From IMG/VR virus record IMGVR_UViG_3300032213_001568, positions 1 to 64,000 of that record: a DNA stretch of 64,000 nucleotides; one strand, written 5' to 3'. Within the stretch, counting starts at the first letter, position 1. Every line of letters starts with the position of its first letter. Positions 44,322 through 63,202 of this stretch are shown here, in pieces. Below the pieces are notes generated by a model. It saw nothing but the letters and a program-made list of their open reading frames with translations, was not told the origin of the DNA and ran no database searches. Both the position numbers and the translations under genes were made by a program. The DNA is from a virus. Its lineage: Duplodnaviria > Caudoviricetes.

Positions 44322-44450
44322 AAAAAAACGAAAGGGAACCATTTCTGATTCCCTTTCTTTGACCTGGGGGTCGGGTTTTTCAACCTGTGTCTACTTACGC
44401 TAAACACCCAACGGTAAGTTTTTTTGTGGAGAGCTTACTTCCTTAATTCT
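44322..44450 (-). ncRNA. Candidate small structured RNA (~120 nt)
   Basis: TATATTTG promoter (44462-44455), four short hairpins, intrinsic terminator, no credible ORF. Confidence 0.5.
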
Positions 44451-46899: not shown

Positions 46900-46937
46900 T
46901 AAATTAGTTATATCTTTGTTTCCTAATCTTACTGCCT

Positions 46938-47228
46938 ATGAAAAATGTAGATGCGGAAATTTACTTAAATCAGTTGATAGGGTTCTTTGAAAAGAACCCC
47001 AACGACTTGATTGACTTAATCGGGAAACTTAAGAAAAATACTTTCTATGAAAGGGTTAAAGAAAAAGTTTACGAAAATCTTGATAATGGTTTGGAACTTA
47101 TCCTTACCCAGCAACAACTTATTGATATTGTTGTAGGTATGTACGATGAGACAAACAAAACTGTTAAACCATTAGAAATAAAAACACCTGTTATCAAAAC
47201 AAATTACGGAATTATTTGGCTTAACTAA
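46938..47228 (+). CDS. Hypothetical protein
   Basis: 96-aa ORF after TATCTTTG promoter (46911-46918). Confidence 0.7.
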   Translation: MKNVDAEIYLNQLIGFFEKNPNDLIDLIGKLKKNTFYERVKEKVYENLDNGLELILTQQQLIDIVVGMYDETNKTVKPLEIKTPVIKTNYGIIWLN

Positions 47229-47268
47229 GAAACTGTTGTATATTTGTAGTCATAAATAAATAAACACT

Positions 47269-59177: not shown

Positions 59178-59588
59178 ATGAAACAAAGTGCAGGAATTAT
59201 TGTGAAAGTAAATGATAAATGTTTGGTTTGTAAGAGAGCTTCAGACATTAATGAACCATCAAAGTGGGCAATACCTATGGGTGGAATAGAAGAAGGTGAA
59301 GACCCTAAAGAGGCGGCATATAGAGAGTTCTATGAAGAGATGGGTGTTTCAGTTGATGGTGTTATTAAACCTTTGTCTAGGATTAATCGTTATAATAAGT
59401 TAGGACAGATAAAAACAATTTTACATGTTTTTATTTTTAAAACCGATACTGAAATCATTCCTGATTTAGATGGTGCTGTAGATGGTTTTGAACACACAGA
59501 ATGTGAGTATATGACTTTAGACCAAATTAAAGGGCTTAAGATGTCATCAGGTATTAAGGAAGTTTTAACAGATGTGTTAAACTTTTGA
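59178..59588 (+). CDS. NUDIX hydrolase
   Basis: GGIEEGEDPKEAAYREFYEEMG Nudix box. Confidence 0.9.
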   Translation: MKQSAGIIVKVNDKCLVCKRASDINEPSKWAIPMGGIEEGEDPKEAAYREFYEEMGVSVDGVIKPLSRINRYNKLGQIKTILHVFIFKTDTEIIPDLDGAVDGFEHTECEYMTLDQIKGLKMSSGIKEVLTDVLNF

Positions 59589-59606
59589 TTTTTTTGATAT
59601 ATTTAT

Positions 59607-59637
59607 TTGACACTACGGAATATTTGCCGTAAGTTTG
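59607..59637 (+). promoter_or_regulatory. Promoter P1 of the giant ncRNA unit
   Basis: TTGACA-N17-TAAGTTTG. Confidence 0.75.
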
Positions 59638-59708
59638 TAAAAGATTTAACACTCATAGGGAATGAAAGATACTCGGTAGTTAAATCAAAAAAAAAGTTCA
59701 CAAACTAC

Positions 59709-59739
59709 TTGACAGAAAGAAAAAAAAGTCGTAAGTTTG
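59709..59739 (+). promoter_or_regulatory. Promoter P2 of the giant ncRNA unit
   Basis: TTGACA-N17-TAAGTTTG; shares CGTAAGTTTGTAAAAGATTT with P1. Confidence 0.75.
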
Positions 59740-59758
59740 TAAAAGATTTGAGATGAAG

Positions 59759-59805
59759 AGGTTGTAAAGATTCCTACTTCGGTAGGTTGTAAAGATTCCT
59801 ACTTC
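59759..59805 (+). repeat. 22-bp direct repeat x2 (AGGTTGTAAAGATTCCTACTTC)
   Basis: Copies at 59759-59780 and 59784-59805; the junction forms a CCTAC-TTCG-GTAGG hairpin. Confidence 0.9.
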
Positions 59806-59819
59806 TTCTCTTTTTGAAA

Positions 59820-60735
59820 AAGCGTTCTTTGAAACAAAAAGATTATCCGTTCAGGAAACACAAAGTGTCGGTGATATTATCCACCGAGTAAATGGCAGAA
59901 AGTCCGCAGCTTGAGTGTAACTGATAAACGATAATGGGCCGTGTATGGTCCTTAAATAAACTACGAAAGTAGGATAAAGTGGTCTCCCTCGTGTTGAGGA
60001 GACTGCGGTTTGAAACCCCGTAAGGGTGATTGAACTCGAGTACACAAGTGGGATATCACCACACCGTAAGTACCGAGGATAACTTCGTAGGGAAAATGGT
60101 AGGGTGACCTGGCAAAGTAGATTGTCAGGTTGAGTTCGGAAGAACGATAAGAATAACCCATAGGAACTCTGTAAGAAATGTGACCATCCAGTTACACTAT
60201 TGCGGGTCCCAATATGATAGAGGACTTAAAACCGAAAGGTAAGATGGAGAACGAGTGGTGTCGCTACTATCCCTAAGGAAGACCTACCAAGGTCTCTTTA
60301 TGAAGTAATCTTGAAATATGGAGGTGGGGACACTTCACGGAGTAGTTTAGTATTTCGTTTCTCAAAAGGAGACGGAGCTTACGTTGGACCACTACTCTGA
60401 CACATCTACAACACAAACCTAAAATTATTACAAAATAACAAAGGAAAAGTGTCCATCAGGTTTGAGTGAAAGGTGACTACATAGTAATGAGCTGTTCATT
60501 GCATACAGAGACCCCAAGTCAATGTGTATTGTTAAGAAAAACCTTTAGTCCCGCAAGGACGAACTGGGGTGGCAACCTCGGAAAGAGTTAAGTACTGATA
60601 GAGTAATTCAAACCTCAAGGAGTGGTACACCTAAAATACCGTCACTAAGAAATACTACCCAAAAGGTGGTGGATACGAAGGGAAACAATAATCCTTCAAA
60701 AGTTTCTTAACATAAGCTGTAATCTCAGGCTTTTC
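59820..60735 (+). ncRNA. Giant structured non-coding RNA (GOLLD/ROOL-class candidate or new class); ends approximate
   Basis: ~0.9 kb with no credible ORF, visibly higher GC, many GNRA-capped hairpins, long-range complementarity, own promoters and terminator. Confidence 0.8.
59824..59834 (+). promoter_or_regulatory. boxA-like antitermination element
   Basis: GTTCTTTGAAA after leader hairpins, as in rRNA leaders. Confidence 0.5.
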
Positions 60736-60742
60736 TAATCTG

Positions 60743-60766
60743 ACCTGTCAATTGACGGGTTTTTTT
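60743..60766 (+). terminator. Intrinsic terminator of the ncRNA unit
   Basis: ACCTGTCA..TGACGGGT followed by T-run. Confidence 0.8.
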
Positions 60767-60787
60767 ATTTATAGATACTTATAAACT

Positions 60788-61012
60788 ATGACAATATTAG
60801 AAAATCTTAAAGAAGTATTACCATCATGGGCGGTGGTAACACAAAAGGAACTACCATATAAGATGGAGTATGAGATTAGACTTCAACCTACTTTGGATGA
60901 GGATGAACATTTTGCTTTAACACCAAAACTTAAGGAGGCTTGTCAGGGTAAGTTTATGGAAAGATACACTGTGGATATTGGTGAACACTTTTATATTTAT
61001 ACTAAAAAGTAA
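60788..61012 (+). CDS. Hypothetical protein
   Basis: 74-aa ORF. Confidence 0.65.
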   Translation: MTILENLKEVLPSWAVVTQKELPYKMEYEIRLQPTLDEDEHFALTPKLKEACQGKFMERYTVDIGEHFYIYTKK

Positions 61013-61014
61013 TC

Positions 61015-61200
61015 ATGACACAAGAAGAACTTAAAGAATTAGTTGACAGATACCCTAACAGTTATGAATTAGGTGAGGAAGTTAAAAAAATTTATTATAA
61101 AAATAAAGAAGAAGAAAACTCTAATATTGGTATGTTATGGGTGGGTTTTTTATTTTTAGCGATATTATTATCACTCATAACTTGGATTGTAGTCGTTTAA
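61015..61200 (+). CDS. Small protein with C-terminal TM helix
   Basis: YPNSYELGEEV; hydrophobic C-terminus. Confidence 0.6.
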   Translation: MTQEELKELVDRYPNSYELGEEVKKIYYKNKEEENSNIGMLWVGFLFLAILLSLITWIVVV

Positions 61201-61241: not shown

Positions 61242-62087
61242 ATGTTACTAAAAGTTGGGTCTAAAGGGGAAGACGTTAAACAACTCCAAGCAAAATTAGG
61301 ATTAACCGCAGATGGTTCATTTGGTCCTAACACAGAAAAAAAAGTTAAAGAATGGCAAGCGGCTAACGGACTAACTGCTGATGGTATCGTTGGTGATGGT
61401 ACTTGGTCTAAAATGTTCGGAGCAACAACTCAACCTGTTCAACCAGCACAAGTGGTTAAAGAAGATGTTGTTATCCCTACAAGTTCAGAATTTAAATTAC
61501 AAAATCTAAAAGGACATGTTCCTGACGCAGTAATTGTTCAAATCCCTGACACTGCTAAAAAATTCAATATTACTAACCCATTAAGATTGGCTCATTTCTT
61601 AGCTCAGTGTGGACACGAGTCAGGTGGGTTTAAAGCTGTTTCTGAGAACCTTAACTATTCTGCTGACGGACTTAAGAAAATCTTTGGTAAGTATTTCCCT
61701 GGTAACTTAAACGAGTCATACGCTCGTCAACCTGAAAAGATTGCTTCACGTGTTTATGGTGGAAGAATGGGTAATGGTGATGAGTCAACAGGTGAAGGTT
61801 TTAAGTTTCGTGGAAGAGGTTACATTCAACTGACTGGAAAACAAAACTATACAAACTTTGCTAAGTTCATTGGTGAAGATACTGTGTCTAATCCTGATTT
61901 AGTTGCTACCAAATATCCTTTAGCTTCTGCGGCGTTCTTCTTTGATTCAAATAAACTTTGGTCAATCTGTGATAAGGGTGCTGACGAAGCAACTGTCACG
62001 GCAGTTACCAAAAGAGTTAATGGTGGTACAATAGGTCTACCAGATAGAATAAAACACTTCAACGAGTATTATAACTTACTTAAATAA
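61242..62087 (+). CDS. Endolysin: peptidoglycan-binding domain plus GH19 lysozyme domain
   Basis: LKVGSKGEDVKQLQ, ADGIVG; HFLAQCGHES, ENLNYS, FRGRGYIQLTG, RVNGG. Confidence 0.92.
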   Translation: MLLKVGSKGEDVKQLQAKLGLTADGSFGPNTEKKVKEWQAANGLTADGIVGDGTWSKMFGATTQPVQPAQVVKEDVVIPTSSEFKLQNLKGHVPDAVIVQIPDTAKKFNITNPLRLAHFLAQCGHESGGFKAVSENLNYSADGLKKIFGKYFPGNLNESYARQPEKIASRVYGGRMGNGDESTGEGFKFRGRGYIQLTGKQNYTNFAKFIGEDTVSNPDLVATKYPLASAAFFFDSNKLWSICDKGADEATVTAVTKRVNGGTIGLPDRIKHFNEYYNLLK

Positions 62088-62179: not shown

Positions 62180-63202
62180 ATGAAAAAAATTAAATTATTT
62201 CTCTTAACCCTTTTCGCATTCATTGGATTGAGTGCTTCGTCACAAGTATTAACATCGTTTAATCTTGATGTAATCAACCCTGAAGGTTGTCCATACACTT
62301 TAATTGGAAACTACTATGGTGGTGGTATCCAAGGAACGATAACTTTCTCATCACAACCTTTAGCAGGATATTATGTTTGTACAGTACCGGCGATTGACAG
62401 TTTGAATATTAGTATTTGTGTGGTTTCAGCGCCACCTTGTTTTGGTGAATCTTGTATAAATGAAGTTATATATCTTGGACCTGGACAAGGAGTTCAAACA
62501 TTTACTGTTGTACTACAACCTCAAGATATTGATGGGGATGGTTTCTTTGATAGTGTTGACTGTAACCCATTTGACCCAACTGTTTATCCTGGAGCACCTG
62601 AGTTGTGTGATGGTATTGATAATAATTGTGATGGGATATTTGATTTAACACCATCAATTAGTATGTATTTTGTTCCTGACTCAATTGTTACTGAACCAAA
62701 CTCAATATTCATTGTATGTCAAACAACAAATGTTACTTCTTGGAATTGGAATTTTGGAAATGGTGTGACATCAAATACATCTTACCCAACTACAAATTAC
62801 GATATTGATGGAACATACTCAGTATGTTTATATGGAACTTCATACGATGGATGTGTAGTTGATTCTTGTCTAACATTTACAATTGATTCACTTGGATGGA
62901 CACCAGGAGGTGTTATGACTAACTACACTTTAAATATTGTACCTGAGTATACTGTTGGTGTGACTGAATTAACTAACAACGTTAAAGTTTGGCCAAATCC
63001 TGTGTTAGGTATTGTTAATATTAACACACCATCAAATAGTGGAACATTAAGAATTATGTCTATTGACGGAAGATGTGTTTACCAACAAAAATATTTCACT
63101 AGCAACATTCAGTTTGATTCTGAAACATTAAGTGATGGAACTTATGTTATTACTCTTACTGACGATAGTGGTAAGTTTTACACAACAAGAATTATTAAAT
63201 AA
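62180..63202 (+). CDS. Secreted protein with Cys/Asp metal-binding motif, PKD domain and T9SS C-terminal sorting domain
   Basis: Signal peptide ..SASS|Q; DIDGDGF...[18 protein letters not shown]; WNWNFGNG; VWPNP...IDGR...LSDGTYVI...TTRIIK. Confidence 0.85.

What the first reader, a model, noticed from the sequence alone, without database searches (positions are those of the whole stretch)
59820..60735. Giant (~0.9 kb) ornate non-coding RNA in a Bacteroidota-type phage
Seen: the only gap >1 kb in a tightly packed genome, visibly GC-richer than its flanks and full of GNRA-capped hairpins: CTAC-GAAA-GTAG 59961-59972, CCC-GTAA-GGG 60017-60026, GTTC-GGAA-GAAC 60134-60145, ACC-GAAA-GGT 60231-60240, GAGGTG-GGGA-CACTTC and GTCCC-GCAA-GGAC. 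There is also a long GACCTGGCAA/TTGTCAGGTT stem. A perfect 10-bp long-range match (AGTGTAACTG 59914-59923 with CAGTTACACT 60189-60198) crosses the CCGCAG/CTGCGG helix (59904-59909 with 60003-60008), which implies a pseudoknot. The 3' CTCAGGC can pair with GTTTGAG near 60460. Known: GOLLD and ROOL are phage-associated giant RNAs of this size range with unknown function. Inference: a divergent GOLLD-like RNA or a new class. No tRNA, tmRNA, RNase P or intron signature was recognised.
Basis: partly seen in the sequence, partly recalled or inferred. Interest (0 to 1): 0.92.

Follow-up and report, generated by a model that had tools for sequence, protein, structure and literature searches.

The report
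GOLLD RNA gene with rRNA-style leader
This gene-free stretch of a large freshwater phage encodes a member of the already known GOLLD family of giant, cage-forming RNAs, so it is real but not a new class; its start carries the same short signal that the likely host group places in front of its ribosomal RNA genes.

Summary
The structured RNA is real, but it is a canonical GOLLD RNA, not a divergent relative or a new class. Rfam's GOLLD model (RF02032) matches window 60338-60731 (+) end to end at 321.5 bits against a cut-off of 150.

That model covers only the conserved 3' half. The 5' half (about 59936-60337) is shared by every related IMG/VR locus that holds enough upstream DNA. On 51 non-redundant relatives, 198 predicted pairs are 97.6% paired and 123 show compensatory changes. 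No shuffle of 500 reached this.

Its three long-range pairings, including the "pseudoknot", are not supported. Contigs from four freshwater metatranscriptome studies cover about 59870-60740.

The RNA is preceded by Bacteroidota-type promoters, a hairpin and GTTCTTTGAAA (59824-59834). This word is kept in 49 of 51 relatives. It also sits before the 16S gene in 21 of 25 genomes of the Flavobacterium class. Transcription with rRNA-type (Nus/boxA) antitermination is therefore likely, but untested.

This scan has already reported the same boxA leader before GOLLD in several other phage genomes. My literature searches found no paper on it.

The parts
59607..59637 (+). Upstream promoter-like module: TTGACA (59607-59612), 17 nt, TAAGTTTG (59630-59637)
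   Evidence: Sequence read. The word TAnnTTTGTAAAA was located at 59630. It is a duplicate of the module 102 nt downstream. One metatranscriptome contig (X4, 59662-59812) lies downstream of it. Promoter activity is inferred, not shown.
59709..59739 (+). Proximal promoter-like module: TTGACA (59709-59714), 17 nt, TAAGTTTG (59732-59739). This is the Bacteroidota-type -33/-7 layout.
   Evidence: In relatives, a TAnnTTTG word lies 34-36 nt before the boxA word in 46 of the 63 unique loci that have the word (my hand count on the list printed). Bacteroidia rrn operons show TAnnTTTG 36-88 nt before their boxA in 19 of 21 cases.
59773..59786 (+). Leader hairpin CCTAC-UUCG-GUAGG, inside a 25-nt direct repeat (59760-59780 and 59785-59805)
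   Evidence: Relatives carry a different small hairpin (TCGGAAAnGTCCGA) at the same place between promoter and boxA. A role like boxB is inferred only.
59824..59834 (+). boxA-like word GTTCTTTGAAA
   Evidence: Exact match at 59824-59834. GTTCTTT is kept at this alignment position in 49 of 51 non-redundant relatives. The word with at most 1 mismatch occurs in 63 of 71 unique upstream regions. The same word lies 68-145 nt before the 16S gene in 21 of 25 genomes of the Flavobacterium class.
59835..59935 (+). Lineage-variable 5' extension with hairpin UCGGUG/CACCGA (59868-59887)
Evidence: This region is variable in length and sequence in alignment A1. The WIN type is shared only with L013 and L031.
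59936..60337 (+). GOLLD 5' domain (about 400 nt, not covered by the Rfam model)
   Evidence: Homologous in all related loci that hold upstream DNA. It has 104 predicted pairs, 70 of them with compensatory changes (helices 2-21). Metatranscriptome contigs cover it.
60338..60731 (+). GOLLD conserved 3' domain
   Evidence: Rfam RF02032, model positions 1-416 of 416, 321.5 bits, E = 2.8e-91 (the same). It has 87 predicted pairs, 53 with compensatory changes (helices 22-36).
60394..60447 (+). A/C-rich unpaired linker (54 nt) closed by helix 60383-60393 / 60448-60457
   Evidence: The length ranges from 52 to 76 nt in the 51 relatives. It corresponds by position to the disordered internal linker of env-38 GOLLD described in PMC12286853 (passages). 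No tRNA lies in it.
60458..60615 (+). Long-range helix 60458-60467 with 60606-60615 (Rfam's annotated pseudoknot strands)
   Evidence: Structure line. This is helix 24: 7 of 10 pairs have compensatory changes and 98.6% of cells are paired.
60742..60768 (+). Intrinsic terminator: 8-bp stem, 4-nt loop, U run
   Evidence: It starts 11 nt after the end of the Rfam match. It is conserved in the closest relatives (L005, L073, L098, L121).

Best explanation
Window 59824-60731 (+) is the gene of a GOLLD RNA, carried by a fragment of a large freshwater phage whose host is probably in Bacteroidota.

Shown:
- It belongs to the family.
- It has a two-domain, covariation-supported secondary structure.
- The strand is +.
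- An intrinsic terminator follows it.
- It is present in RNA libraries.

Inferred, step 1 (about 0.6): host RNA polymerase starts at the TTGACA-N17-TAAGTTTG promoters. It transcribes a leader hairpin and the boxA word GTTCTTTGAAA. That word recruits host NusB/S10 and the rest of the rRNA antitermination complex. The roughly 1-kb untranslated, highly structured transcript then escapes Rho and folds as it is made.

Inferred, step 2 (about 0.75, by homology with the solved env-38 and Streptococcus agalactiae GOLLDs): copies of the RNA assemble without protein into a closed cage of about 12-14 subunits. The 3' domains form the ring, the 5' domains form the caps, and the 54-nt linker points inward.

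For: - Rfam RF02032 matches over its full length at 321.5 bits, against a gathering score of 150. It is the only Rfam family in the window and in the 110.5-kb contig.
- All related loci with upstream DNA share the 5' domain.
- On 51 non-redundant sequences, 198 pairs are 97.6% paired against 85.5% in shuffles. 123 pairs show compensatory changes. No shuffle of 500 reaches this, and slid controls give 38-47%.
- Folding is strand-specific.
- An intrinsic terminator lies at 60742-60761.
- Contigs from 4 metatranscriptome runs of 4 studies lie on about 59870-60740. Several pieces have no differences, for example X2 at 60116-60354 and X1 at 60069-60272. 18 of the 24 runs listed are on record as RNA.
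- boxA: conserved in relatives and identical to the rrn leader word in 21 of 25 genomes of the Flavobacterium class. 10 of those matches are exact and 11 have one mismatch. The promoter-hairpin-word layout is the same.
- A second copy of the word (GTTCTTTGACA) lies 25 nt before the contig's tRNA array.
- The word fits 10 of 11 positions of the published gammaproteobacterial boxA consensus GYTCTTTAANA (PMC5725501, passages).
- Cage: PMC12286853 and PMC12990946 (passages) report RNA-only 14-mers and 12-mers for two GOLLDs. Both small hairpins of the 3' domain, with loops CGCAA and GGCA, are kept in 49 of 51 relatives including this one.
Against: - No raw reads were available. The transcript's 5' end, its strand in vivo and its level are therefore not shown (laid contigs only).
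- High-depth contigs begin near 59870-59937, downstream of boxA. The leader may be processed off, or may simply be too variable to map.
- boxA and the 3'-domain word CAAGGAG (60616-60622) are complementary and both invariant. RNAalifold pairs them, so a structural role for the word cannot be excluded.
- No binding or antitermination assay exists.
- No tRNA lies beside the RNA, unlike many GOLLDs. The nearest tRNA is about 10 kb away.
- I could not compare the 5' domain with the solved env-38 RNA, because no RNA sequence of it was available in the tools. Oligomer number and cage formation are therefore extrapolated.
Confidence: 0.9

Rival explanations
1. One reading: a divergent GOLLD-like RNA or a wholly new class of giant RNA with its own long-range pseudoknot.
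For: Only the 3' 394 nt match Rfam. The 5' 500 nt have no Rfam model, and a perfect 10-bp complementarity exists in this sequence.
Against: - The Rfam model is known to cover only the 3' region. Residues 421-833 of env-38 are called the 3' region in PMC12286853.
- The match is full-length at twice the cut-off.
- The 5' domain is shared with all relatives.
- The 10-bp match and the two other long-range helices show no conservation beyond shuffles.
Confidence: 0.03
2. GTTCTTTGAAA is not an antitermination signal. It is a structural strand that pairs with the invariant CAAGGAG (60616-60622), tying the 5' end to the 3' domain.
For: RNAalifold predicts this 7-bp helix with 97.2% of cells paired. 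Both words are nearly invariant.
Against: - No pair shows a compensatory change. Five sequences break the G-C pair without compensation.
- The same word stands before 16S genes and before this phage's tRNA array, where no CAAGGAG partner logic applies.
- The solved env-38 construct forms its cage with separate 5' and 3' domains.
Confidence: 0.15
3. The stretch is an ordinary long 5' or 3' UTR, or hides a small protein gene, and its structure is incidental.
For: Short ORFs exist in the stretch: 41 aa on the + strand, and 64, 66 and 47 aa on the - strand.
Against: The Rfam hit, the covariation in 123 pairs, a terminator straight after the RNA, and promoters of its own. The ORFs are not conserved as frames: substitutions in the alignment follow base pairing.
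Confidence: 0.01

Closest known systems
GOLLD RNA (Rfam RF02032; solved examples are the env-38 14-mer and the Streptococcus agalactiae 12-mer, as named in PMC12286853 and PMC12990946)
   Same: - Full-length match to the family model.
- A conserved 3' domain with its pseudoknot.
- A variable 5' domain of about 400 nt.
- An internal unstructured linker.
- Phage-encoded, from fresh water.
- Total length of about 800-900 nt.
   Different: - No tRNA lies beside it or inside it. The tRNA array lies about 10 kb downstream.
- The linker is of the shortest class in the family sample (54 nt).
- It has an extra lineage-specific 5' extension.
- The host signals point to Bacteroidota. My searches found no paper on this, but Rfam's species lists were not available to me.
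ROOL RNA (phage-associated, cage-forming, 8-mer)
   Same: The same kind of element: a large phage or prophage RNA that forms an RNA-only cage, often near tRNAs (PMC12286853).
   Different: A different family. There is no Rfam ROOL hit in the window, and its sequence and fold are unrelated according to the paper.
Bacterial rrn operon leader (promoters, hairpin, boxA; Nus-factor antitermination complex)
   Same: - The same word GTTCTTTGAA(A) as in rrn leaders of the Flavobacterium class.
- The same order: TAnnTTTG promoter, hairpin, word.
- A second copy before another stable-RNA unit, the tRNA array.
   Different: It drives a phage non-coding RNA, not rRNA. Function is untested, and the 110-kb contig encodes no Nus factor (NusG search).
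Phage lambda nut sites (boxA plus boxB; from my own knowledge, not from a call)
   Same: A phage transcript that carries a host-type boxA to make RNA polymerase resistant to termination.
   Different: Lambda needs its own N protein and uses the signal for mRNA operons. No N-like protein was sought or seen here, and the product is a stable RNA.

Membership tests
GOLLD RNA (RF02032) | Covariance-model score at or above Rfam's gathering score, over the whole model | tested here: met
   321.5 bits against 150; model positions 1-416 of 416; E = 2.8e-91. Reproduced.
GOLLD RNA (RF02032) | Conserved 3'-domain pseudoknot and helices kept by compensatory change | tested here: met
   Helix 60458-60467 / 60606-60615: 7 of 10 pairs are compensatory. 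3' domain overall: 53 of 87 pairs.
GOLLD RNA (RF02032) | A large, less conserved, structured 5' domain joined to the 3' domain, giving a total of about 800 nt or more | tested here: met
   59936-60337 is shared by relatives, with 70 of 104 pairs compensatory. The core 59936-60731 is 796 nt, or 908 nt counted from boxA.
GOLLD RNA (RF02032) | 5' domain homologous to P1-P13 of the solved env-38 and S. agalactiae GOLLDs | not testable with these tools
   No RNA sequence of the solved entries could be fetched. Figures and supplements of PMC12286853 are not held.
GOLLD RNA (RF02032) | Encoded by phages or prophages, often next to tRNA genes | tested here: inconclusive
   The phage part is met: this is an IMG/VR virus record. 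No tRNA lies within the window. An array of 14 tRNAs lies at contig positions 70660-78909. The huge-phage relatives L002 and L003 have a tRNA 3' end directly upstream.
GOLLD RNA (RF02032) | RNA-only homo-oligomeric cage | not testable with these tools
   Known for two members. Here it is only inferred from conserved loops.
GOLLD RNA (RF02032) | Made as an RNA | tested here: met
   Contigs of 4 RNA libraries from 4 studies lie on about 59870-60740. Contigs cannot show ends, strand or level.
rrn-type boxA antitermination leader | Sequence equals the boxA of the host group's rrn leaders | tested here: met
   GTTCTTTGAAA with at most 1 mismatch lies 68-145 nt before the 16S gene in 21 of 25 genomes that have at least 250 nt upstream. 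It fits 10 of 11 positions of GYTCTTTAANA.
rrn-type boxA antitermination leader | Placed shortly after the promoter, behind a small hairpin, and conserved in relatives | tested here: met
   63 of 71 unique relatives have the word. 46 of those 63 have TAnnTTTG 34-36 nt before it (hand count). In this window the distance is 92 nt because of a 25-nt repeat.
rrn-type boxA antitermination leader | Binds NusB-S10 and makes transcription resistant to Rho or terminators | not testable with these tools
No paper was found.

The most novel reading that the evidence does not exclude
GOLLD genes of Bacteroidota phages (and this phage's tRNA array) are built as mimics of the host's rRNA operons: host-type promoters, a hairpin and an exact host boxA. 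The phage thereby borrows the Nus-factor antitermination and RNA-folding machinery to mass-produce a giant cage-forming RNA. This would be the first stated mechanism for how a GOLLD RNA is expressed. It would also be an example of boxA use for a non-ribosomal stable RNA. The same idea has been noted by this scan on several other phage genomes. My searches found no paper on it.
Probability: 0.55. Interest if true: 0.5.

Novelty: new member of a known kind. Interest (0 to 1): 0.3.

Why it matters
For the finding as written, it matters little. The RNA is a textbook member of a family described in 2009 and solved by cryo-EM in 2025, and it is abundant in freshwater viromes.

Its value is as a clean, well-bounded example: promoters, leader, RNA and terminator all lie in 1.2 kb. 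It comes with a deep set of natural variants (51 non-redundant sequences, 123 covarying pairs) that could guide structure and assembly studies of the lake-type GOLLD.

The leader is the more useful lead. If the boxA word works as in rRNA operons, it explains how a 0.9-kb untranslated RNA escapes Rho and folds correctly. It would also tie GOLLD, whose function is still unknown, to the host's stable-RNA production line.

Tried and rejected
Tested on alignment A1 and rejected.
- **Prophage or host copies.** The 27-nt GOLLD motif found 0 stretches in the 185,579-species genome collection, so it gave no host.
- **Host by RfbB (contig 63508-64476).** 64 loci were found. The best three are Bacteroidota or Flavobacteriales MAGs at 55-57%, and the rest are from many phyla. 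This is only weak support.
- **16S in five of those genomes.** Only one had a 16S gene, and it had only 79 nt upstream. I therefore sampled the class. 30 of 61 genomes had a 16S gene, 28 loci were read, and 25 had at least 250 nt upstream. Four of those 25 (L192, L205, L206, L208) lack the word.
- **Is boxA a feature of GOLLDs in other phyla?** GOLLD was found in 0 of 4 handles and in 0 of 151 genomes of the class of Lederbergia. The question stays open.
- **NusG in the contig.** None found; the contig is only 38% of the phage.
- **Count of the boxA word in the window.** 7 matches against 4.6 expected, with 20 of 100 shuffles reaching this. The count alone is not significant; the evidence is position and conservation.
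- **Weinberg 2009 (the GOLLD discovery paper).** Not held, so what it says about leaders or hosts is unseen.
I saw only the abstract and outline. They do not mention boxA, so I did not use it.
- **Supplements of PMC12286853.** They may already hold this lake subfamily.
- **Read laying flanks.** Bins 59200-59601 and 61143-61200 had no cover in any of the four runs. The bins in between the flanks and the RNA held only two low-depth contigs (X4 at 59662-59812; X2 at 60789-61013).
- **Joints.** They skip 68-176 nt, at a likeness threshold of 90, and are most likely relatives with shorter helices. I did not follow them.

Full report
**What is there.**
- The window is the first 64 kb of a 110,526-base IMG/VR virus record that CheckV rates 38% complete. 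It is therefore a fragment of a large phage.
- Between a NUDIX gene (59178-59588) and a 74-aa ORF (60788-61012) lies the largest ORF-free stretch of the window.
- Its G+C is 41.8% against 32.2% for the window.
- The + strand folds much better than shuffles (z = -4.75). The - strand does not (z = -0.12).

**Identity.**
- A scan of the whole window against Rfam gave one hit above threshold. It is GOLLD (RF02032) at 60338-60731 (+), covering model positions 1-416 of 416, at 321.5 bits against a gathering score of 150, E = 2.8e-91.
- The model covers only the conserved 3' region. In the solved env-38 GOLLD, residues 1-420 are the 5' region and 421-833 the 3' region (PMC12286853, passages).
- No tRNA, tmRNA or other Rfam family is in the window.

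**Relatives.**
- blastn against GenBank phages found two uncultured huge phages of 634 and 642 kb.
- All 121 fetched loci match the 3' part. 110 of them also match the 5' part (window 59745-60337). The 11 without a 5' match are cut at the locus edge.
- Identity to the 5' part runs from 65% to 99%. Homology starts at about 59916-59935 in all relatives, and at about 59820 in a subset.
- Of 100 full-length copies, 51 are less than 93% identical to each other. These form alignment A1.

**Structure.**
- RNAalifold on A1 predicts 198 pairs.
- Counted independently, 97.6% of cells are paired, against 85.5% in shuffles and 38-47% when partners are slid by one to three columns.
- 123 pairs carry compensatory changes, and no shuffle of 500 reaches any of the five measures.
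- The 5' domain alone has 104 pairs, 70 of them compensatory. The 3' domain has 87 pairs, 53 compensatory.
The seventh (CCC-GTAA-GGG) is the tip of a variable-length stem.
They are 60.6% paired against 59.7% in shuffles, and their covariation is no better than chance.
  - CAGTTACACT pairs locally, within 60178-60197.
  - GTTTGAG belongs to Rfam's pseudoknot helix 60458-60467 / 60606-60615, in which 7 of 10 pairs are compensatory.
  - CCGCAG lies in an insert found only in WIN, L013 and L031.
- A 54-nt A/C-rich linker (60394-60447) sits where the solved GOLLD has its disordered internal loop. In relatives it is 52-76 nt long.

**Expression.**
- 24 public runs hold 34-46% of the sampled words of 59600-60800. 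18 of them are on record as RNA, from 19 studies of fresh water, rivers, lakes and sediment.
- I laid the contigs of four RNA runs from four studies on 59200-61200. They lie on about 59870-60740, and several pieces have no differences.
- These are contigs, so they show presence in RNA libraries. They do not show ends, strand or level.
- An intrinsic terminator follows at 60742-60761 plus a U run.

**Leader.**
- Two TTGACA-N17-TAAGTTTG modules lie 102 nt apart (59607-59637 and 59709-59739). They are followed by a UUCG-capped hairpin (59773-59786) and by GTTCTTTGAAA at 59824-59834.
- GTTCTTT is kept at this position in 49 of 51 sequences of A1, including one huge phage.
- With at most one mismatch, the 11-mer is present in 63 of 71 unique upstream regions. 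In 46 of those 63, a TAnnTTTG word lies 34-36 nt before it (the 46 is my hand count).
- To learn what the word is, I took 16S loci from genomes of the class of Flavobacterium sp. 28A. This handle came from an RfbB search.
- Of 25 genomes with at least 250 nt upstream, 21 carry the word 68-145 nt before the 16S gene. 10 matches are exact and 11 have one mismatch. Several genomes carry GTTCTTTGACA in the 16S-23S spacer.
- 19 of the 21 have TAnnTTTG 36-88 nt before the word, often with a hairpin between.
- The word fits 10 of 11 positions of the published boxA consensus GYTCTTTAANA (PMC5725501, passages).
- Outside the window, the spacer-type variant stands 25 nt before the first of the contig's 14 tRNAs.
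- I therefore read the word as a host-type boxA. That it recruits Nus factors is inference.
- The alternative is that it pairs with the invariant CAAGGAG at 60616-60622. This cannot be excluded, because neither side varies informatively.

**Host.**
- The gene at 62180-63202 has a T9SS C-terminal sorting domain (41.8 bits against a cut-off of 27).
- The promoters are of the TAnnTTTG type.
- The boxA equals that of the Flavobacterium class.
- The best RfbB matches are Bacteroidota or Flavobacteriales MAGs.
- Together these point to Bacteroidota. No direct link (prophage, spacer) was found.

**Comparison and novelty.**
- The RNA passes every testable defining feature of GOLLD.
- Untestable here are homology of its 5' domain to P1-P13 of the solved RNAs and cage formation. 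Adjacency to tRNAs is not met in this window.
- Two GOLLDs form RNA-only 14-mers and 12-mers. By homology this one probably does too.
- The family's function is unknown in the papers I read.
- The RNA is therefore a new member of a known kind.
- The leader is not described in any paper my searches found: 'GOLLD' with 'boxA' gave 4 unrelated plant papers, 'GOLLD' with 'Bacteroidetes' gave 3 unrelated papers, and 'GOLLD RNA' is held by 15 papers.
- The discovery paper and the supplements were not available to me.
- Earlier notes of this scan report the same boxA leader before GOLLD in several other Bacteroidota phage genomes, and a first-reader note reports it on this window. I read the latter before my own test, so it was a lead. 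The tests are my own.

**Verdict.**
- Interest is low to moderate, and it rests on the rRNA-style leader.

Noticed in passing
G000:C1:70635-70645 (outside the window; tRNA array at 70660-78909): GTTCTTTGACA stands 25 nt before the first of 14 phage tRNAs. This is the boxA variant seen in Bacteroidia 16S-23S spacers. It follows a terminator hairpin and a TTGACA..TACTTTTG promoter near 70424.
   Followed up: partly
window 59607-59812: The leader is duplicated. Two promoter modules lie 102 nt apart, and a 25-nt direct repeat sits at 59760-59780 and 59785-59805. The 99%-identical relatives L006 and L055 lack this and have the -7 word 34 nt before boxA. The stretch after the first module resembles the leader type of L014, L016 and L017.
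   Followed up: partly
G000:C1:89847-89857 (outside the window): An exact GTTCTTTGAAA lies after a terminator and a TATATTTG promoter, about 20 nt before an ATG. It may be a boxA in front of a protein gene.
   Followed up: no
window 46982-46992: An exact copy of the boxA word lies in the 369-nt gap 46900-47268. It sits inside a GGGTTCTT/AAGAACCC hairpin, so it is probably a chance match.
   Followed up: no
window 44450 (-), 36958 (-); G000:C1:73850 (+): Further copies of the promoter word TAnnTTTGTAAAA. The one at 44450 (-) heads the small ORF-free stretch that another first-reader note calls a second small RNA.
   Followed up: no
window 62180-63202: A phage protein with a MopE metal-binding motif, a PKD domain and a T9SS C-terminal sorting domain (Pfam). 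It is next to a PG_binding_1 plus Glyco_hydro_19 endolysin-like gene at 61242-62087.
   Followed up: partly
L002 (LR745206, 634 kb) and L003 (LR756502, 642 kb): Two uncultured huge phages carry the most divergent GOLLDs of the set (about 46% identity over the alignment). Each lies directly after a tRNA 3' end. L002 keeps the boxA word; L003 does not at that position.
   Followed up: partly
Read laying joints at window 60157-60340: Metatranscriptome contigs skip 68-176 nt inside the 5' domain in two runs (for example 60168 to 60317 in X1 and X4). They are probably relatives with shorter helices rather than processing.
   Followed up: no
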